A DNA stretch of 62,864 nucleotides, the filler included. It is 14 parts of 14 records of this genome, joined end to end, with 100 filler letters (N's around TTAATTAATTAA, not from the genome) between each part and the next. Parts side by side here need not be neighbours in the genome. Positions count along the whole stretch, not along the records: positions 28,709 to 32,729 come from SRR7504441_8343; 13 more parts are not named here. One strand, given 5' to 3'. This document shows positions 28,709 through 44,149 of this stretch, one piece after another; the stretch's first letter is position 1; the number at the start of each line of letters is the position of its first letter. A model generated the notes under the pieces. That model made no database searches. It saw nothing but the letters and a program-made list of their open reading frames with translations, and was not told where the DNA came from. Position numbers and translations under genes: made by a program.

Positions 28709-30227
28709 TGACGAGAGAGCCACACACACCAGCCGTGTGGTGGCGCGCTGCGCCGAATGATGAGTCACGAATAAAAACAAAAAATAAATAAAAATAGGGG
28801 CCGGCCAAAGAGGCGCTGTGGCGGTGGCAGGCGGTGCGCCTGGTGGGCCGACCGTTGGCGGCGGCCGGACGACCCTCCGAGCTGGGCTCCAGAGCTATTA
28901 ATAGATCCAACGGACACCGATCCACTCTACAACGGTCGTCTGTCTGTTGGCCGGAATGCAGCCGTTTGTGCTGCCGGAGATCGGCGCGGGCCCTCGGGTG
29001 CTCCCAGCACGCTCCAACGGACATCTCACAACGGGGGGCAGATGGCGGTTGCTGGCTTTGATCGTGCCCGGGAGGTTGGCGGCGGTTGGGACTTAACAGT
29101 GTGACAGTGTGACAGGCCGAGCAATGGGACAACGAGAGGGACGTGCTGCTAGGGATTCCAAGGTGCAGCCCAACGGCATTGCCGTTGACCGCGGGGGTGC
29201 AACGGACAGACGGCGCCGCCGGCCGATGCAGCGAGCCCCCATGCCGCAGCACCACCTTGGTCATCACATCTCGCCGGTGCCGCGAGGGCCCCCCGACAGT
29301 GTGGGGAAGGGGGTGGGGTAGGTGCAGCTTCGGCGGCTGCAGGAGATTCAGAGGGAAAATCAGCACATTGTTGGCCGAATACAGTCGATTAAACGCGGCC
29401 GGGGGTGGGTGCCTTAGAGTATAGGCTAGAGCTAACCGGATCTTGCCACCGCGATTTGGTGGCTAAATATAGCATTCCGGTCGTTTTTGAACTGCCAAGG
29501 GACCTAACCCAAGCTCAGACGGCCATTGTGAGCCGAGCGGGTTGCCAGATTGTCCCGAGATATTGTGGGTGAAACGCGGACAATCCGATCCATGATCAAC
29601 TGGCACACCCATGATCACAACTCGAACGCTATCGCTGCTAGTGTTAATCAACAAGTTAATTAGCAACGGACCTGGTTCTCCCTGTGGATCTGGTGCAACC
29701 TAAACCGCCGTCTCACAGCGCCATTACTACCAGTAGAGCTACTACTAATACACAAGTCTAATACTATACATACAAGTACTTAATATAGCATCAATCTGCC
29801 ACAGGAGCACACCTGAACTCTCGTGCCCTCCTACGGTTCTCTCTATGATTCCGCCGCCCGAGCTGTATCGAGTCCACTTCCCCCCGAACTTTATGTACGT
29901 GCCTGCCTCCAACAGTCAGTTAACCTACAACGGACGTATTAAGGCCTTAATTAATATTAAGGCCTTAATACTGTGTCGTACACTGCAACGGGGCTTCAAA
30001 TGAAGCTTTGATTGAGTGTCGGTTGGCAGGATGATCCGAGGGATTTGTTTAACGATTTGGACATTAGCCTGCCGGACGATAAGAGCGGAGCCGAGTTGAT
30101 CCAGCAACAGCTCGGGCAGGCGGATCCGGCGAGGCTTGAAGAGTATGCCAGTCGGTTGCCTGCTATACACGCTCGCGAGGATGGTATTGTAAGACCGGCC
30201 CGTCGCATCTACCCAACCATACCCTGA
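28709..30227 (+). CDS. Multi-exon gene containing a CFAP97/KIAA1430-like motif, 5' end unresolved
   Basis: Exon at about 29322-29404 reads VQLRRLQEIQRENQHIVGRIQSIK, flanked by GT..AG short introns. Last exon ends ..RIYPTIP* at 30227. Confidence 0.55.
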
Positions 30228-30493
30228 CAGTGCTCATTCAATTTGTTATCAAATATAAATCAGCTTGCTGTGTTGCTGTGAATCAAATAGTTCCAGTGTA
30301 ACCCCACCCGATTCGATCCTCTGGACCGTACTACAAGTACAATACCGCTCTAGTGTACACTGGGGTACGATAAAATTTATTCCCCAATCCCTCCGACCGT
30401 TACGCAATAACCGTCATGTGTTTACAATGCGCTCTAAACGTGCTCTATAATGCCTCGCTGCGGGGCCAGGCGATGCCCTCCTCGATCAATCGA

Positions 30494-32291
30494 TCAGTCC
30501 GCGCTAATCAGAGTCGCTAGCCCAGACCTGTGCCCCATTCCCAACGGCATTAACACCCTAACTGCACCGACTGAGCGGCCCATCGCTCGGCGGCGGCAGC
30601 TTCTGCGCTGCTCATCTGGTCCTGGAGGTTCGCCTTCCGCCACACACTCAGCATGCAAGGTGCCACGAAGCGGTTTTAGCGATAGAATCAATTAGTGCTA
30701 AGCGTCACCTGTCTGTGGTCGGCGCTTGGTTGAGGCTGCATACAGTGCGCTGCAACACCGACCGTCAACTGAATTTAGGCCGAATCAAGCATCACTCACG
30801 CCACTCCTGTGGCACGTTGTAAGGCTGGCCCCACGCCTGAAGAAAAGCGGTTAAAATGCCGTTACAAATGCCGTTAGGATCGCCTGCTGCACCCAGTGGG
30901 CATCAAGCTGCTCGACATTGCACTCTTCCATCACCTGCGTTCGAATTTCAAATTCAAATTCGAGTTCAATTAACCGTCCGGCTTGGCCGCACCCATGCCT
31001 GGCCCTCTGACAGGCTATTCTGAAACCTGCACCGATCGGTGAGGATTCTACCGGCTCGATTCAAATTCAAACTTTGAGGCGGGCACTCGCTGGAATAGCT
31101 GCGGTCGCGGCATGTTGGTACCCAGGTACTGGACTGGGCCTGTTAACAGACTTTCCCGATTAGGAAGAGTGTGTTACACCTGCGGTCGAAGGGTAGCCTG
31201 GCGCGTACGGCTGCTGAGCGGTCGCTGCATGTTGAGGGTTGGCCGCCAGCTGGCGTTGGGCGGCCTGGTGCTGGAGCACTTGCTGGTGCACCGCCTGATG
31301 ATCTTATTCAATCATAAATCTGGATTAATTAAATCGCTCTCAACCTGCTGGTGCCGGAGCGTTTCTTGTTGGATGGCCTGTTGCTGAAGCGCCTGCCTCC
31401 GAATTAAAACAATTAAAGAGTGTTAAGAGCACCTGCTGCTGCATCTGCTGCATCTGGCCCGGCGGCCCGAAATGCTGCGGTGACTTAATCATGACAACAG
31501 TTACTCTTAACACTAATTCACTCTTAACAACCCTCTGACCTGCATCTGTGACCACTGTCGGTGCACGTCGGCCTGGCCGTTTCCGTCAACAATTAAACAG
31601 TCAGATTAATCCCGCCTGGTGCCATCGCACAGCCGCCTCCTGGTAGGTCGGCTGCCGTTGGGTGAGTTAACAATTAAACAGTAATAATTTGCACCGGTGG
31701 TCGTCGTTGCTGCACTGTGGGGTAGGACCCTCGTGGGGGTATCGGCAGCTTGTCCTGACCCGAGTACACCTGTAACGGCATTTCAACGGCATTCCAACGG
31801 CATTTTAACGACCTCGAAGTTGCTGCCCGAGCACAGGAAGTTGCCGACGGTGTGCTGGGCCACCTAACGGACATAATAATAATAATAATAATAAAGCGCG
31901 CACCATCAGCTTCTGCCGGTGGGCCCAGCTCCAGATGGCCACCTGCCCTCCGCTCTGCCTGAATCCCAACAGGCACCCACCTGCCGTTGCCCCGACGCGG
32001 GGGGCCCCACTGCCGGCTCCGGCCCGGCCGGCTCGTCGCGCGGCGGCGGCTTGGACGGGAATGCCGTTGGCTCGCTGGCCGGGCCGCCGGGGGGCGACGG
32101 CAGCTGTTCCCAGTCCTGGGCCGCGGGCTCTGCCGTTACAGTTGCCGTTGCCGTTGCCGTTGCGGGCCGTACCGTCGGGCCGTGCCGGAGAGACCAGCGG
32201 TGACACCTGTGTTGCCCGCCGGTGAGCGGGAGTTTAACGGAATTTAACGGACCAGATCGACCACGTCGGCCGCGGGCTGCTCCCGGTCCAT
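30494..32291 (-). CDS. Intron-dense gene (about 17 introns) for a P/Q-rich protein with a BRK-like module
   Basis: Frame-consistent splicing from ATG 32291 gives MDREQPAADVVDLVSP...QRQVAIWSWAHRQKLMVAQHTVGNFLCSGSNFEVYSGQDKLP...QMQQMQQQALQQQAIQQ. One junction near 30975-31047 and the exact stop are unresolved. Confidence 0.7.
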
Positions 32292-32434
32292 CACACCGAC
32301 CGTCCCCTGCGCCCGCCGCTCCCACCATCCCGCCACGGCCACAGCACCTGCCCACCGCCATCGACACAATCTGGGCAGCCAAAATTCCGTTGGAAGAGTT
32401 CATCGACGACGCGATCTCTCTGACGACACGCGCG

Positions 32435-32729
32435 ATGGTCAAGGTGCCTCCTCCAGCCCCGGAGAGCTCCCGCCAGCCCCCCCGGGACCCCCGGCCGCGC
32501 GGTCCGTTACCGTTACCGTTGACCGGCCGTTGGCAGTTTACGGTGCGCTCGCCGCCATTCTGGAACAAAGTTCGGACCTGGTGCCCCCCACACCGGAGGG
32601 GGGGTTCCGTTGATTGCCGTTGGACAGGGACCTGGAGATGGACCCGGAGGCCACGGTCGCCGAGATGTGGGCCAAGGTCCGTTGCTCGCCCAACGGCATT
32701 CGCCTGTAGTGTGTGGGGGGGGGGGGGGG
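32435..32729 (+). CDS. 5' exons of a gene starting with a ubiquitin-like domain, 3'-truncated
   Basis: MVK|FTVRSPPFWNKVRTW|DLEMDPEATVAEMWAK| after removing GT-AG introns. The pattern fits a UBL beta-beta-alpha start. Confidence 0.6.
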
Positions 32730-41106: not shown

Positions 41107-41177
41107 CTAGGGTTAGGGTTAGGGTTAGGGTTACGGGTTGCTGAGGCTTTCGCCAAGCCCTAACCCTAATAACCCTG
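41107..41177. repeat. Short telomere-type repeats: (TTAGGG)x4 followed about 20 nt later by degenerate CCCTAA units
   Basis: ctagggttagggttagggttagggttacggg at the contig start and ccctaaccctaataaccctg at 41158-41177. Confidence 0.85.
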
Positions 41178-41242
41178 ATTGGCCTGATTATAACAGTTGC
41201 GTGGCACCCGCGGCGGCGCACAGGGAGTCGGCGGCCCTGGCC

Positions 41243-43213
41243 ATGGCATCTGGCGGTGGCTGGTTTGCAGGAGAGCCGCCTCCACCTGAGCTCAGCACCG
41301 AGGTCGCCCGGCGGCCGGCCTCACGCTGACGGGGCGCAGCAGGTGCGGGAGGCCCAACAGCGGATCCGCGAGAAGGCACAGCGCAAAAAGCCCAGCGGCG
41401 GCTGGTTTGCGCCCCCAGTCTCGCCCAAACGGACGCAGCTCACTGACAAGCAGCGGGCGAGGGCGCTGGAGCTCTTCCGGGTGGTGGATCTTGACTCGGA
41501 CGGCCTGGTCTCGCAGTCGGAGCTCGAGCGGACCTGCACCGGGCCGGAGCTGGCCGACCTCAAGATGGCCCTCGCCGGATTTTACGAGGCCCTGGCCGCG
41601 GGCGAGCCGATCGGCCCGGAGGCGTGGGTCGAGCACTGGCGGCGAATGAAGGTCGAGCTCGGGGAGGCCGGGTTCGCGCGCTGGCTCAAGCTGGTGAGCG
41701 GGGGGGCGGCCGAAGCGGACCGGCAAGGGTGGTTCAGGAGCCGCCCAGCGTCAGACACTGGCTCGCTGCCGACTCCGACCCGCAGGGCAGCGGGGCACGA
41801 GAATGAAGGCGGCGGGGTGTTTATGGAGAGTCCGCCTGGCCGCGCTGAAGGGCAGCAGGAGCCGGCCAATGTGGAGCGGTGGAAGCCGGTGCTCGACTCA
41901 ATGCAGCAGCCAGAGCAGGAGGTGGTGAGATACGCAACCCAGCGTGACCAGAGCAAGATCCTGGCCGATTTAAAGAGCAGCGGGTTCCTCACCGGTCTCG
42001 AGAACAGACGCGGTGCGCAGTGCGCCGACCCCAGTCCTCAGCAGCTCAGCAGCGTGGACAGCGACAGTGCCGAACAAATGAGGAGTGTGCAGAGTGGTCA
42101 AGGGTTCAGGCATTGGCTCGATCATCATTCGCCGGAAGACGGACAGTACAGCTGTGGTTGTGCCCGCCGGAGCCGGAGGAGCCTGCGGATCGACAGTGGG
42201 GGCCTGGTGTCGCCACTGCCAGCAAATGAGATCCAGTACAGCTTATACGACTTGGCCGAGCAGGAGATAGAGTTCCAGGAGAAGCTCTACGGGGCGAAGC
42301 TGCCCCGACCGAAAAAGAAGACTGACATCACCAAGGTCCTTTGTTGACTAGTGCATGGTTTTGTCTTACTGAGTTGAATGCTGATCAGGTGTTTGGTACT
42401 CCGGAGGCCGAGGCGTTCAATAAGCAGCAGATGGGCGAGAGCTGCGAGTCAGGTGCTCACCGTAATCCGACGTTTGAATTCTTGGAGGAGACCGTAGCAG
42501 AGCTCTCCATAGATTCCCAGCCATCCCCTGCAGCTCTGCGAGCAGCAGCCAATAACCAGAAGCTCCAGAAGGAGAAGATTTCGCATCATCTCACGGCGCT
42601 AGCCGTTAAACTCCGAGACGCTGCCTCGTGTGGTGATGCGACGCACTGTCGGGTGCTACTAGAAGCAGGCTGCCAACCGGATGGCCCGGATAGCAATGGC
42701 CGAACAGCGCTCTGGTTTGCTACTAAAGGTCAAAGGGAGCACGTCATCAAGCTTCTGTTGGAAGCTCGAGCGAATCCGCGGTTGCAAGATAACGCAGGCC
42801 AGAGCTCAATTGCGGTTGCTGTTGGAGCTAGTAGGCCTGATATTGCGAAAGTGCTGCAAGCATCGCAGGCAAGCTGGCCGGCAAGTACACAGGAGCAACG
42901 CAGTTCTCCTAGGCTGACGCCAAATGGATTTCAAATCCCAAGGCTCTCACCACTTGATATGATGGCCCAAGCCGTGACTGGAAATTTGTTGAGTAGAGGA
43001 ACAGAGCGCAATATTGCCGAGCAGGCTTATATGCAACAATGGAGCCGTGCACAAATGTCCGCAGAAGAGCGGGAGCATTTACAACGTGCTGGCGCAATCC
43101 GAGCTCCCATCTCTGCCGAAGCTAGTGAGCACTTTCAAGGCGATGTCTTGTATGAGCAGTTGTCGGATCAACAACTGAAGAGCTTAGAGACCTTGAGAGC
43201 TTCGTATCATTGA
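41243..43213 (+). CDS. EF-hand + ankyrin-repeat protein
   Basis: EF-hand DLDSDGLVSQSEL. Ankyrin repeats GRTALWFA..VIKLLLEARANPRLQDNAGQS. Three G-W-F motifs in the N-terminal part. Confidence 0.8.
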
Positions 43214-43618
43214 GTTCCTAAAAGAATGAAAATAAGATAAAAACGCGATTCATCATTCATACATGATTGTATCCTGAGTGCCATAACAATGTCATAGCTA
43301 TGACAATCATAGTCATGACAATCATAGCCATGACATCGCCATGCCCTGCACATTTGTCCATGTAAGTAGGCTGTCTTTGACCTAGATCTCTAACCTCGAC
43401 TACATAATTATAAGCTCAAAGCTGCAGTCGTGCAGTCTAGTGCAGTCTTTGTCTCTCTGCCAAACATGCATCGATCGTGCTGCACACCCTCCAGCCGGCC
43501 AGCTAGCTGCCTGCGCGTGTCACGAACTTGATTCCTGTTTTCCTCTTTCGTCGTGCTAGGGTCTCCGCATCTGGCGCGGGATGGGGGCCACCGGGCCAGA
43601 CGGCGCGCGTAGAAGCTA

Positions 43619-44149
43619 ATGATACCGCCCGGTGTGAGAGGCCGGGCGTGGCGTGCCTCGTGGACGCTGGTGTTGACGCTTGCCACCAGCCTAGCTCCGG
43701 CCGTCGCGGACTCCAACCCGCCTTCCTACAGCCAGGCCCGGGCACTAGCTGGGGAAAACCTTGCGAGCCAAGTTCACAGCATGGCTCCACGCCCAAAGGC
43801 CTCGCCTACAGCGAGGAAGAACCTGGAGCCCCTGACATATCGACGTTCCAGTACTAGTACTAGCAACACTACTGACACAAATGCCACTAGCACGAATGCC
43901 ACTAGCACTGGCACTTGCGTCCTCGGCGACTGCTGTCCCGAGCAATACTCATGTGCTGGAGGAATACTGTCTCTTTGCCCCGCAGGAACCTACTCGGCGT
44001 TTAATCAAACATCATGCTTCAGTTGCCCTGCAGGATTCCACTGCCCAAATCGCACGCTCCCCGTCCCCTGCCTCCACGGTACTTACTCTGGGAATGGCAG
44101 CAGCATCTGCTCCGAGTGTCCAGCAGGCAAATCGTGTGCAGATCCAGCA
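43619..44149 (+). CDS. Secreted/surface Cys-rich repeat protein (GCC2/GCC3, ephrin-receptor-like repeats), 3'-truncated
   Basis: Signal-like N-terminus, Thr-rich N-glycosylation stretch, repeats CPAGTYS..CPAGFHC..CLHGTYS..CPAGKSC. Confidence 0.85.

What the first reader, a model, noticed from the sequence alone, without database searches (positions are those of the whole stretch)
28709..32729. A whole contig whose tiny introns are filled with amplified AACGG, TTAA and TTTGAA motifs
Seen: I count about 39 AACGG/CCGTT pentamers by hand in about 4 kb, against roughly 8 expected by chance and about 5-6 in the similar-sized first contig. They occur in both orientations, often as YAACGGCATT or short tandem arrays. 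Most lie inside inferred introns of three unrelated genes (e.g. 32130-32172 x4, 31770-31812 x3, 32207-32252 x2, 30837-30883 x2, and x4 in the first intron of the 32435 gene), while exons stay in frame. The motif changes in zones along the minus-strand gene: AACGG near the divergent promoter, TTAA-rich introns at 31140-31694, TTTGAA/TTCGAA introns at 30935-31086, then AACGG again. Introns in the other 13 contigs are mostly G/C-rich and I saw no such arrays there. Established: AACGG is the MSA/MYB (MYB3R, B-MYB) core, and TTTGAA/TTCGAA is the CHR element bound by LIN54/TCX of the MuvB/DREAM complex. Inference: either a compact genome stores a domain-wide protein-binding code in its introns, or a local mutational process amplifies these words. 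This is my best candidate for an undescribed system here.
Basis: partly seen in the sequence, partly recalled or inferred. Interest (0 to 1): 0.85.

Follow-up and report, generated by a model that had tools for sequence, protein, structure and literature searches.

The report
Tiny introns padded with repeated words
One short piece of a little-known marine-type protist genome carries unusually many tiny introns built from copies of a few short DNA words, which looks like recent intron making and padding by insertion and duplication, not a stored regulatory code.

Summary
The count is real. The contig 28709-32729 holds 39 AACGG/CCGTT against 9.2 +/- 3.1 expected from its own dinucleotides and 1-10 in each of the other 13 contigs. 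AACGGCATT occurs 9 times here and 0 times in the other 57.5 kb.

In my unverified gene models, 29 of 39 cores lie in 22 small GT/GC-AG introns (25.6/kb), against 2.0/kb in exons. They show no strand bias relative to transcription (15:14).

These introns have the same length class as predicted introns elsewhere (median 44 vs 45 nt). They are about 8 times denser, lower in GC and far more often internally duplicated (10/22 vs 3/42). Codon usage fits the other contigs.

Arrays of the same word fill intron-like segments in environmental eukaryotic contigs. Five of 20 tested arrays there have 9-22-nt flanking duplications. One locus places them beside a hAT transposase gene.

Best reading, about 0.5: locally gained and padded young introns made by insertion plus slippage. 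A Myb-type binding code is not excluded. No RNA data, whole genome or orthologues were available.

The parts
28709..32729 (.). Whole contig between two N/TTAATTAATTAA spacers: 4021 nt, GC 0.578, 39 AACGG/CCGTT cores in 24 clusters
28956..29417 (+). Modelled gene C+ (5 exons, 4 introns). The last exon has weak, below-threshold Pfam hits to INO80F and Hmw_CFAP97.
   Evidence: Hand model. Pfam E 6.8e-5 and 1.3e-3, both under the curated cut-off. Codon score 0.093 in the modelled frame but 0.067 in one reverse frame, so weak.
28998..29041 (+). Intron, 44 nt, 2 cores
29075..29115 (+). Intron, 41 nt, 0 cores, 8-nt unit x2.5
29163..29209 (+). Intron, 47 nt, 3 cores, two of them as an 8-nt inverted pair
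29277..29327 (+). Intron, 51 nt, 0 cores
29845..30227 (+). Modelled gene M+ (2 exons). The acceptor choice is uncertain.
   Evidence: Codon score weak (0.043; one reverse frame 0.085). No orthologue found with exon 2.
29895..30040 (+). Intron, 146 nt, 2 cores, 6 TTAA, a perfect 16-nt inverted repeat and a 15-nt direct repeat
30792..32291 (-). Modelled gene Q- (15 exons of 33-149 nt, 14 introns, 288 codons, glutamine-rich). It may continue further 3'.
   Evidence: GC1/2/3 = 0.75/0.49/0.80. Codon score +0.154 in the modelled frame and negative in the other five.
32207..32252 (-). Intron 1, 46 nt, 2 cores, 10-nt unit x2.3
32130..32172 (-). Intron 2, 43 nt, 4 cores, 6-nt unit x5.5
31943..31980 (-). 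Intron 3, 38 nt, 0 cores
31864..31903 (-). Intron 4, 40 nt, 1 core, 3-nt unit x7.3
31770..31812 (-). Intron 5, 43 nt, 3 cores, 11-nt unit x3.4. It is 92-95% identical over 37-40 nt to arrays in environmental loci.
31652..31694 (-). Intron 6, 43 nt, 1 core, TTAA-rich. It shares a 19-nt word family (D1) with introns 7 and 9.
31573..31615 (-). Intron 7, 43 nt, GC-AG donor, 1 core
31475..31539 (-). Intron 8, 65 nt, 0 cores. One arm of a 31-nt inverted repeat (I1, 74% complementary) lies in it; the other arm lies mostly in intron 9.
31393..31432 (-). Intron 9, 40 nt, 0 cores, 3 TTAA
31295..31344 (-). Intron 10, 50 nt, 0 cores, GC 0.30
31140..31179 (-). Intron 11, 40 nt, 0 cores
31027..31072 (-). 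Intron 12, 46 nt, 6-nt TTTGAA-type duplication
30935..30974 (-). Intron 13, 40 nt, 6-nt unit x3.8
30837..30892 (-). Intron 14, 56 nt, 2 cores, 12-nt unit x2.4. This is the same array as intron 5 in the opposite orientation (inverted repeats I2, I4, I11).
32435..32727 (+). Modelled gene V+, divergent from Q- with 143 nt between the two start codons. It runs off the contig end.
   Evidence: Codon score +0.254 in the modelled frame only.
32444..32536 (+). Intron, 93 nt, 4 cores, 6-nt unit x3.5
32581..32627 (+). Intron, 47 nt, 2 cores
32677..32709 (+). Intron, 33 nt, 2 cores in opposite orientations

Best explanation
The contig is an ordinary nuclear piece of the same compact, GC-rich protist genome as its neighbours. 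Its genes have been invaded by an unusually dense set of tiny spliceosomal introns, and those introns are built largely of short local duplications.

One word family, YAACGGMM, supplies most of the filling. It often appears as AACGGCATT in arrays with periods of 6, 10, 11 or 12 nt.

I read this as a process acting on DNA. Short repeat arrays are inserted at breaks, either as repair filler or as a small mobile tandem-repeat element possibly related to the transposase-binding repeats of hAT transposon ends. Replication slippage and local copying in either orientation then pad the introns to the roughly 40-47 nt the spliceosome of this organism accepts. On this reading they are young introns, and the words are a by-product, not a stored code.

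Shown: the enrichment; the extended word; the arrays; the lack of strand bias; the equal intron length class; the higher intron density and duplication rate; the matching codon usage.

Inferred: that the segments are spliced; that the introns are recent; that the word family arrives by insertion; the link to hAT ends and to the environmental arrays.
For: 1. 29 of 39 cores lie in 22 modelled introns (25.6/kb), against 2.0/kb in exons. 13 of the 22 introns carry at least one core.
2. Cores are arranged in tandem arrays with periods of 6, 10, 11 and 12 nt. Unrelated words are also tandemly duplicated in neighbouring introns (3-nt x7.3, 6-nt x3.8, 8-nt x2.5).
3. An internal tandem duplication of 5 nt or more is found in 10 of 22 introns here, against 3 of 42 predicted tiny introns elsewhere. 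In Daphnia, 55 of 90 new introns but only 100 of 617 old ones have significant internal direct repeats, attributed to break repair (PMC4202315, passages).
4. There are 68 nt of exon per intron here, against about 547 in the other contigs.
5. Median intron length is the same, 44 vs 45 nt. Spliced coding models score positive under codon usage learned from the other contigs. So this is the same genome and the same spliceosome, and only the intron filling differs.
6. In introns the sense strand carries AACGG 15 times and CCGTT 14 times. Introns 5 and 14 hold the same array inverted. This argues against an RNA-level signal.
7. An exact-pattern scan of metagenome contigs found 60 loci. Eighteen of them share four contig-name prefixes and carry 10-11-nt arrays of the same word. 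Among 19 loci examined (those 18 plus L049), 5 of 20 testable arrays have flanking non-array direct repeats of 9-22 nt. In several of the 18, the arrays can be excised as GT-AG segments joining open frames.
8. One locus, L049, encodes a hAT transposase (PF05699, E 1.8e-18). It has 12 cores in its first 270 nt and 6 in the remaining 3.2 kb. In maize Ac/Ds, multiple AAACGG hexamers in the terminal 200 bp bind the transposase (PMC3260210, passages).
Against: - No target-site duplication or terminal inverted repeat was found around arrays in the target. The longest flanking repeat was 6 nt (p about 0.3-0.4) for the two arrays tested. By eye, junction repeats do not exceed the AG|GT region.
- No hAT homologue was found in the window by tblastn.
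- The introns share words of 9-31 nt, not full-length similarity, so they are not a clean repeat family.
- An invariant core with variable spacers, and crowding around the divergent promoter and the 5' ends of genes, are what a protein-binding site would also show.
- The intron set in the other contigs is an ab initio prediction made with a method that disfavours short exons. The density and duplication contrasts may therefore be overstated.
- The pattern scan also hit unrelated bacterial and phage iteron-like arrays. Sharing a 9-11-nt unit with the environmental group could be coincidence.
- No RNA run was available, so splicing is not shown.
- Two of the four gene models (C+, M+) have weak coding scores.
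Confidence: 0.5

Rival explanations
1. Cis-regulatory or chromatin-protein binding arrays. The YAACGGMM sites would be bound by a Myb/SANT-type factor, or by a domesticated hAT/BED-type DNA-binding protein. In a genome with intergenic spacers of about 140 nt they are parked in promoter-proximal tiny introns, marking a small domain of neighbouring genes.
For: - 37 of 39 sites read YAACGG, with further bias at the next two bases. The 79 AACGG sites in the other contigs lack these biases.
- The core is invariant while array spacers differ.
- 14-15 copies lie within about 300 nt of the divergent Q-/V+ promoter, and 9 lie at the 5' end of gene C+.
- Both orientations occur, as expected for a site read on DNA.
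- Myb recognition of YAACGG is recalled knowledge and comes from no call.
Against: - A density of 25.6/kb, and arrays with a 6-nt period, leave no room for independent occupancy.
- Only 1 core lies in the 143-nt promoter spacer itself.
- Unrelated words are amplified in the same way in neighbouring introns.
- Arrays of the same word behave as insertions elsewhere.
- No binding protein could be sought.
Confidence: 0.18
2. Outlier genome compartment. The contig comes from a special chromosomal region, like the low-GC part of the big outlier chromosome of Mamiellophyceae. There, genes carry many short, lower-GC introns without common signals, and the repeated words are a side effect of that regime. 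This overlaps with the best explanation and is not a strict alternative.
For: - Introns are about 8 times denser.
- Intron GC is 0.525 against 0.634 elsewhere, with GC-rich exons at 0.652.
- BOC1 introns are short (<75 nt), AT-rich, restricted to one region, lack a branch-point motif and are numerous per gene (PMC3879977, passages).
Against: - Contig GC (0.578) lies inside the range of the other contigs, 0.556-0.652.
- Only 7 of 22 introns are below 43% GC.
- BOC1 introns are described as sharing few common features, not a word family.
- The size of any such region cannot be judged from 4 kb.
- The nearest named relative is Telonema, not a green alga.
Confidence: 0.12
3. Foreign contig. The piece belongs to another eukaryote, a contaminant or mis-binned contig, in which all introns look like this.
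For: - It is the only one of 14 contigs with the word family.
- An unnamed environmental eukaryote has abundant arrays of the same unit.
- The assembly is highly fragmented.
Against: - Codon-usage scores of the spliced models under a model trained on the other contigs are positive in the modelled frame. They lie within the range of those contigs' own ORFs: 0.154 and 0.254 against -0.01 to 0.29.
- Median intron length is the same (44 vs 45 nt), with similar GTG and CAG ends.
- The environmental array segments excise as introns of 71-112 nt by my models, not about 43 nt.
- No coding similarity to the environmental loci was found.
Confidence: 0.08
4. Slippage alone. Ordinary old introns are kept above a minimum length by replication slippage. 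The core is common because it lies next to the splice signals: several introns start GTCCGTT and several end AACGGCAG.
For: - Three introns begin GTCCGTT, and three end in AACGGCAG or AACGGCCAG.
- Arrays abut these ends in Q- introns 1 and 2.
Against: - Slippage does not explain inverted copies in different introns and genes.
- It does not explain the 9 dispersed copies of a 9-mer that is absent from 57.5 kb.
- It does not explain the 8-fold intron density.
- The 42 predicted tiny introns elsewhere have the same length but 0 cores.
Confidence: 0.07

Closest known systems
Introner elements / introner-like elements (Micromonas, Aureococcus, Symbiodiniaceae, Polarella). I read passages of PMC9860276, PMC4540971 and bioRxiv 10.1101/2020.10.14.339549.
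   Same: Introns within a genome share sequence. Intron density rises locally. Insertion can occur in either strand orientation. Splice sites can be partly recruited from the target.
   Different: Known introners are whole-length repeat families with short target duplications (3-9 bp, or 4 nt) and/or terminal inverted repeats. Here only 9-31-nt words are shared, and neither signature was found. The introns are 33-65 nt and are built of tandem units. The word 'tandem' occurs 0 times in the main text of each of the three papers. Their supplements, which I could not open, may list consensus sequences.
Newly gained introns from double-strand-break repair in Daphnia pulex (PMC4202315, passages)
   Same: A high share of introns has internal direct repeats (55 of 90 new vs 100 of 617 old there; 10 of 22 vs 3 of 42 here). 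The inserted filler is of unclear origin. New introns gain length through further insertions and duplications.
   Different: In Daphnia the gains are shown by presence/absence polymorphism and by 4-12-bp end repeats. Neither is available or found here. No shared word family is described there in the passages I read.
BOC1 introns of the low-GC outlier region of Mamiellophyceae (PMC3879977, passages)
   Same: Short introns with a GC drop against GC-rich exons, many per gene, found in only part of the genome.
   Different: BOC1 introns are defined as below 43% GC (7 of 22 here) and are described as sharing few common features. The lineage is different. Whether there is a regional restriction here is unknown.
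Subterminal transposase-binding repeats of hAT transposons: Ac/Ds AAACGG hexamers (PMC3260210, passages)
   Same: Dense clusters of an AACGG-core word in both orientations with irregular spacing. One environmental locus with arrays of the same word carries a hAT transposase gene.
   Different: Ac repeats sit within about 200 bp of each element end, next to 11-bp terminal inverted repeats and 8-bp target duplications. Here the cores spread over 4 kb of genes, with no such ends and no transposase in the window.
Myb-binding sites / plant MSA elements, and CHR elements. These are recalled and checked by no call.
   Same: The core YAACGG is matched by 37 of 39 sites.
   Different: Such elements are a few copies in promoters of co-regulated genes. 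Here there are tandem arrays inside introns at 25.6/kb, and the CHR-like words are 4 copies in two adjacent introns.

Membership tests
Introners (intron-generating mobile elements) | Many introns of one genome alignable to each other over most of their length | tested here: not met
   Within the contig only words of 14-31 nt are shared. Introns 5 and 14 share an array of about 23 nt. The genome-wide picture is not testable.
Introners (intron-generating mobile elements) | Insertion signature: target-site duplication and/or terminal inverted repeats at intron ends | tested here: not met
   The longest flank repeat is 6 nt, p about 0.3-0.4, for the two arrays tested. By eye, junction identity is limited to the AG|GT region.
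Introners (intron-generating mobile elements) | Presence/absence differences between strains or close species | not testable with these tools
   No genome, runs or orthologous loci were available.
hAT (Ac/Ds-type) transposon ends | Clusters of a short transposase-binding word in both orientations | tested here: met
   39 cores, 17 + and 22 -, in 24 clusters. This feature alone does not make the region a transposon.
hAT (Ac/Ds-type) transposon ends | 8-bp target duplication, terminal inverted repeats, and a transposase gene or its remnant | tested here: not met
   No flanking or terminal repeats were found. tblastn with the L049 transposase against the window gave no hit below E 0.99.
Myb / MSA cis-elements | YAACGG core | tested here: met
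   37 of 39 sites. The consensus itself is recalled.
Myb / MSA cis-elements | Few copies in promoters of a co-regulated gene set, with a cognate Myb protein present and binding | not testable with these tools
   No genome is held. 29 of 39 copies are in modelled introns and 1 is in the 143-nt divergent promoter spacer.
BOC1-type outlier-region introns | Short (<75 nt) | tested here: met
   20 of 22
BOC1-type outlier-region introns | AT-rich (<43% GC) | tested here: not met
   7 of 22; pooled intron GC is 0.525.
BOC1-type outlier-region introns | Confined to a low-GC chromosomal region | tested here: inconclusive
   Contig GC 0.578 lies within the 0.556-0.652 range of the other contigs. The extent of any region cannot be seen in 4 kb.
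Break-repair neo-introns (Daphnia type) | Excess of internal direct repeats over established introns | tested here: met
   10 of 22 vs 3 of 42. The comparison set is ab initio.
Break-repair neo-introns (Daphnia type) | Direct repeat of the exon end at the opposite intron end; recent origin shown by polymorphism | tested here: inconclusive
   At most 8 nt spanning AG|GT, at one intron (31943-31980), read by eye. Polymorphism is not testable.

The most novel reading that the evidence does not exclude
A minisatellite-type introner. A mobile tandem array of a 10-12-nt unit with an AACGG core, descended from the transposase-binding repeats of hAT transposon ends, inserts with target duplications of variable length. 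It seeds or pads tiny introns in distantly related marine protists, possibly moving between them. In this genome it would have turned a cluster of small genes into micro-exon genes, with a median exon of about 45 nt.
Probability: 0.2. Interest if true: 0.8.

Novelty: new variant of a known kind. Interest (0 to 1): 0.5.

Why it matters
How new introns arise is still argued. Documented routes are transposon-like introners and break-repair insertions, and they are known from few lineages.

This looks like a block of four small genes, in a protist whose nearest named relative (by one protein) is Telonema, with about one intron per 68 nt of exon. The introns are visibly assembled from tandem and inverted copies of short words. 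If RNA data confirm splicing, it would be a compact natural example of intron birth and early growth in a lineage for which my one literature search on Telonemia genomes and introns showed no genome description.

The same word fills intron-like segments with insertion footprints in environmental contigs, and it sits beside a hAT transposase gene in one locus. That gives a testable link between transposon ends and intron filler.

If the words instead prove to be bound by a protein, this would be an unusual case of regulatory sites packed into tiny introns.

Tried and rejected
- RNA or DNA runs: none was listed for the contig.
- Whole genome: not held.
- Earlier notes near this place or by sequence: none.
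- Ab initio spliced-ORF search with an intron penalty of -6 found no gene scoring 8 or more in the target contig. The exons are too short for it, so I built the models by hand.
- Orthologue search with exon 2 of gene M+ found 3 hits, two of them matched in 10 separate stretches, and none an orthologue. Pfam on six exons gave only two weak hits, both on one exon. So no splice junction is validated by homology.
- ESM Atlas on an Alg9-like protein gave no useful taxonomy.
- Identity of the environmental array-bearing organism: a glyoxalase-II-like ORF has no named relative above 56% identity. In one search I chose the 'longer' length class, which was poorly suited.
- CpG-decay idea, that the TTAA-rich zone holds deaminated copies of the core. 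AACAG/CTGTT is raised (8 vs 2.1 expected) but AATGG/CCATT is 0. Not supported.
- Rfam: no match at E <= 0.1.
- Viral contigs: one hit, a high-GC locus (GC 0.665) that I read by eye as phage-like. The 11-mer stands three times among copies of a 20-nt repeat. It is unrelated.
- Literature on the word itself: whole-word search found 1 unrelated paper. The 'anywhere' search found 228 papers, and the 25 listed had unrelated titles.
- A recalled lead, that Emiliania huxleyi introns hold 10-11-nt tandem repeats, could not be checked. The genome paper is not held, and two searches listed nothing on it.
- Replitrons (PMC10288648, passages) proved irrelevant.
- Flanking-repeat test, first version: it mishandled minus-strand arrays and was redone.

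Full report
WHAT THE WINDOW IS

The window is 14 short contigs (3.0-8.8 kb) joined by N/TTAATTAATTAA spacers. They encode eukaryotic proteins: TOG/CLASP, LRR, EF-hand/GAF, PX, an Alg9-like mannosyltransferase and an amino-acid transporter.

The 903-residue TOG protein finds only unnamed Logan proteins (56-59% identity) and one EukProt transcriptome protein at 55%. That protein's accession names Telonema subtile. So the genome is from a poorly sampled protist, and on this single protein Telonema is its nearest named relative.

THE OBSERVATION

The target contig (28709-32729, 4021 nt, GC 0.578) has 39 AACGG/CCGTT.
- Expectation is 8.6 from base composition and 9.2 from dinucleotides, with sd 3.1 and a maximum of 21 in 1000 simulations.
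- The other 13 contigs have 1-10 each, 79 in 57,543 nt. That rate predicts 5.5 here, P about 2e-20. Counting arrays once gives 24 clusters against 5.45 expected, P about 4e-9.

The word is longer than the pentamer.
- The preceding base is C (27) or T (10) in 37 of 39 sites.
- The next two bases are A or C in 32 and 36 of 39.
- The 79 sites in the other contigs show no such bias.
- AACGGCATT or its complement occurs 9 times here and never in the other 57.5 kb. CCAACGGCATT occurs 5 times.

Tandem Repeats Finder reports these core-bearing arrays:
- 31774-31810, period 11, x3.4
- 32131-32163, period 6, x5.5
- 30850-30876, period 12, x2.4
- 32229-32251, period 10, x2.3
- 32504-32525, period 6, x3.5

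It also reports arrays of unrelated words: a 3-nt unit x7.3, a 6-nt unit x3.8 and an 8-nt unit x2.5.

TTAA is 7.96/kb here against 1.06/kb elsewhere. TTTGAA/TTCAAA is 6 against 20 in the rest of the window, and 4 of the 6 lie in two adjacent introns.

GENE MODELS

An automatic spliced-ORF search trained on the other contigs found nothing in this contig, because the exons are too short. I therefore read the frames by hand and checked the models by script.
- The minus-strand gene starts at 32291. It stays open for 288 codons through 14 introns of 38-65 nt: 13 GT-AG and one GC-AG. Its GC1/2/3 is 0.75/0.49/0.80.
- Three plus-strand genes add 8 introns: 44, 41, 47 and 51 nt; 146 nt; and 93, 47 and 33 nt.

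Under codon usage learned only from the other contigs, the minus-strand gene scores +0.154 per codon in the modelled frame. The gene at 32435 scores +0.254. Both are negative in all five other frames, and the training ORFs themselves score -0.01 to 0.29. The two remaining models are weak: 0.093 and 0.043, each with a comparable reverse frame.

One exon (29328-29417) has below-threshold Pfam hits to INO80F and Hmw_CFAP97. No orthologue was found for another exon. The models are therefore plausible but not verified by RNA or homology.

WHERE THE WORDS LIE

With these models:
- 1135 nt of intron hold 29 cores (25.6/kb).
- 1503 nt of exon hold 3 (2.0/kb).
- 1383 unassigned nt hold 7.

Thirteen of the 22 introns carry a core. 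On the sense strand of introns, AACGG occurs 15 times and CCGTT 14 times. Introns 5 and 14 of the minus-strand gene carry the same array in opposite orientations (pairs I2, I4, I11). The feature therefore lives on DNA, not in the RNA.

Neighbouring introns also share other words. A 19-nt family occurs in introns 6, 7 and 9, with a weaker fourth copy (68% identity) outside the modelled gene, and a 31-nt inverted pair (74% complementary) links introns 8 and 9.

COMPARISON WITH THE REST OF THE WINDOW

The automatic models of the other contigs give 42 introns of 30-70 nt.

| Measure | Target contig (22 introns) | Other contigs (42 predicted) |
|---|---|---|
| Median intron length | 44 nt | 45 nt |
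| Intron GC | 0.525 | 0.634 |
| Cores | 29 | 0 |
| Internal tandem duplication of 5 nt or more | 10 of 22 | 3 of 42 |
| Exon nt per intron | 68 | about 547 (all 78 predicted introns) |

The GTG-rich donor and CAG acceptor are similar in both sets.

The caveat is that the two sets were made by different methods, and the automatic one penalises short exons.

So this contig uses the same size class of intron and the same codon usage. It has about 8 times more introns, and they are filled differently. That argues against a foreign contig.

RELATED SEQUENCE ELSEWHERE

An exact scan of metagenome contigs, for two 9-mers plus a core with 1-4-nt spacers, gave 60 loci. They are heterogeneous.

Several look bacterial to me: a conserved context with a ribosome-binding-site-like sequence and a start codon (L006, L016, L022, L058). 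The single viral-collection hit is a high-GC locus with short repeats around the array, which I read as phage-like. A shared unit alone therefore proves nothing.

However, 18 loci share four contig-name prefixes and carry arrays of 10-11 nt with the same word and close variants.
- These loci have GC 0.37-0.63.
- In L001, L007, L015, L019 and L032 the arrays can be removed as GT-AG segments of 71-103 nt that join open frames.
- Among 19 loci examined (those 18 plus L049), 5 of 20 testable arrays are flanked by direct repeats of non-array sequence: L030 15 nt, L033 21 nt, L042 9 nt, L048 10 nt, L054 22 nt. None of 300 control windows reached these lengths. This is the footprint of an insertion.
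- Intron 5 of the target is 92-95% identical to these arrays over 37-40 nt. That figure is partly by construction of the search.
- No coding similarity links these loci to the window.
- Their organism has no close named relative.

One further locus, L049, encodes a hAT transposase (PF05699, E 1.8e-18). It has 12 cores in its first 270 nt, against 6 in the remaining 3.2 kb. This resembles maize Ac/Ds, where multiple AAACGG hexamers in the terminal 200 bp bind the transposase (PMC3260210, passages). The window holds no hAT homologue, and the target arrays have no terminal or flanking repeats.

INTERPRETATION

The facts that need explaining together are these:
- one word family plus several unrelated words, all tandemly amplified;
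- copies in both orientations, across four genes;
- almost exclusive location in introns;
- introns of normal length but about 8 times the density and lower GC.

I think a DNA-level process of insertion and duplication that makes and pads tiny introns explains these best (about 0.5).

The closest documented cases:
- New introns of Daphnia: 55 of 90 have significant internal repeats against 100 of 617 old ones, and break repair with filler is inferred (PMC4202315, passages).
- Introners: transposons that create introns, with short target duplications or inverted ends (PMC9860276, PMC4540971 and bioRxiv 10.1101/2020.10.14.339549, passages).

The target fails the defining tests for an introner family. 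There is no full-length similarity and no insertion signature. So I file it only as working like these, not as a member.

The tandem-array build is not mentioned in the main text of the three introner papers ('tandem' occurs 0 times in each). I could not see their supplements.

It is an unchecked lead that fits the environmental group, and I did not test whether it is the same family.

RIVALS

- A Myb-type binding code keeps about 0.18. The core is exact and its flanks vary, and copies crowd around 5' ends. But 6-nt periods, 25.6 copies per kb and the parallel amplification of unrelated words speak against it.
- An outlier compartment like the BOC1 region of Mamiellophyceae (PMC3879977, passages) is a good functional analogy, at about 0.12. 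It is only partly met: 7 of 22 introns are below 43% GC, and contig GC is not low.
- Contamination is at about 0.08.
- Slippage alone is at about 0.07.

The CHR reading of TTTGAA is not supported.

VERDICT

The finding is a new variant of a known kind: repeat-built, probably young introns. Everything rests on one 4-kb contig without RNA, genome or orthologue data, so I score interest at 0.5.

Noticed in passing
window 41107-41180: The contig 41107-44149 begins with four TTAGGG-type units (the first reads CTAGGG). About 30 nt further on there is a short inverted CCCTAACCCTAA. This is telomere-like, but in the orientation opposite to that expected at a left chromosome end.
   Followed up: partly
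window 32715-32729: The target contig ends in a run of 15 G. This is probably a sequencing artefact of two-colour chemistry, which is recalled knowledge, and not biology.
   Followed up: no
L001 about 1300-1375: In an environmental locus, four TTAGGG units sit between two copies of an 18-nt direct repeat (read by eye). This would be an interstitial telomere-repeat insertion with a target duplication, in a locus that also carries the intron-like arrays.
   Followed up: no
L030, L033, L042, L048, L054: Arrays with a 10-11-nt unit are flanked by direct repeats of 15, 21, 9, 10 and 22 nt of non-array sequence. The variable length is unlike the fixed short duplications of cut-and-paste transposons and might point to break repair or reverse-transcriptase priming.
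   Followed up: partly
L021 330-357 and 1120-1146: Two array-filled intron-like segments of one environmental gene are preceded by the same 14-nt exon-side sequence (read by eye).
   Followed up: no
L049 1-270 and 789-2849: A hAT transposase gene (PF05699) lies about 0.5 kb from a field of AACGG-core and ATCGG-type words at the locus end: 12 and 5 copies in 270 nt.
   Followed up: partly
L061 2300-2450: A high-GC (0.665) viral-collection locus that I read by eye as phage-like. The same 11-mer stands three times among three copies of a 20-nt repeat, which looks like an origin with iterons. It shows that the search pattern also hits unrelated sequence.
   Followed up: partly
L006, L016, L022, L058: Four metagenome loci share one conserved upstream context, with two or three spaced copies of the word just before a ribosome-binding-site-like sequence and a start codon. 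I read this as a bacterial operator-like arrangement.
   Followed up: no
window 29936-29971: A perfect 16-nt inverted repeat with a 4-nt spacer, which is also a 15-nt direct repeat, lies inside the 146-nt intron of gene M+ (I7 and D6).
   Followed up: no
whole window: Third-position GC of long ORFs differs widely between contigs, from 0.55 to 0.86. The assembly may be compositionally heterogeneous or may mix expression classes.
   Followed up: no
window 30450-30791: The minus-strand gene may continue past my stop codon. A GTGAGT-type donor overlaps the stop at about 30792, and a further 40-nt intron-like segment around 30535-30575 holds the core at 30543 (read by eye). That would put 30 of 39 cores in introns.
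   Followed up: partly
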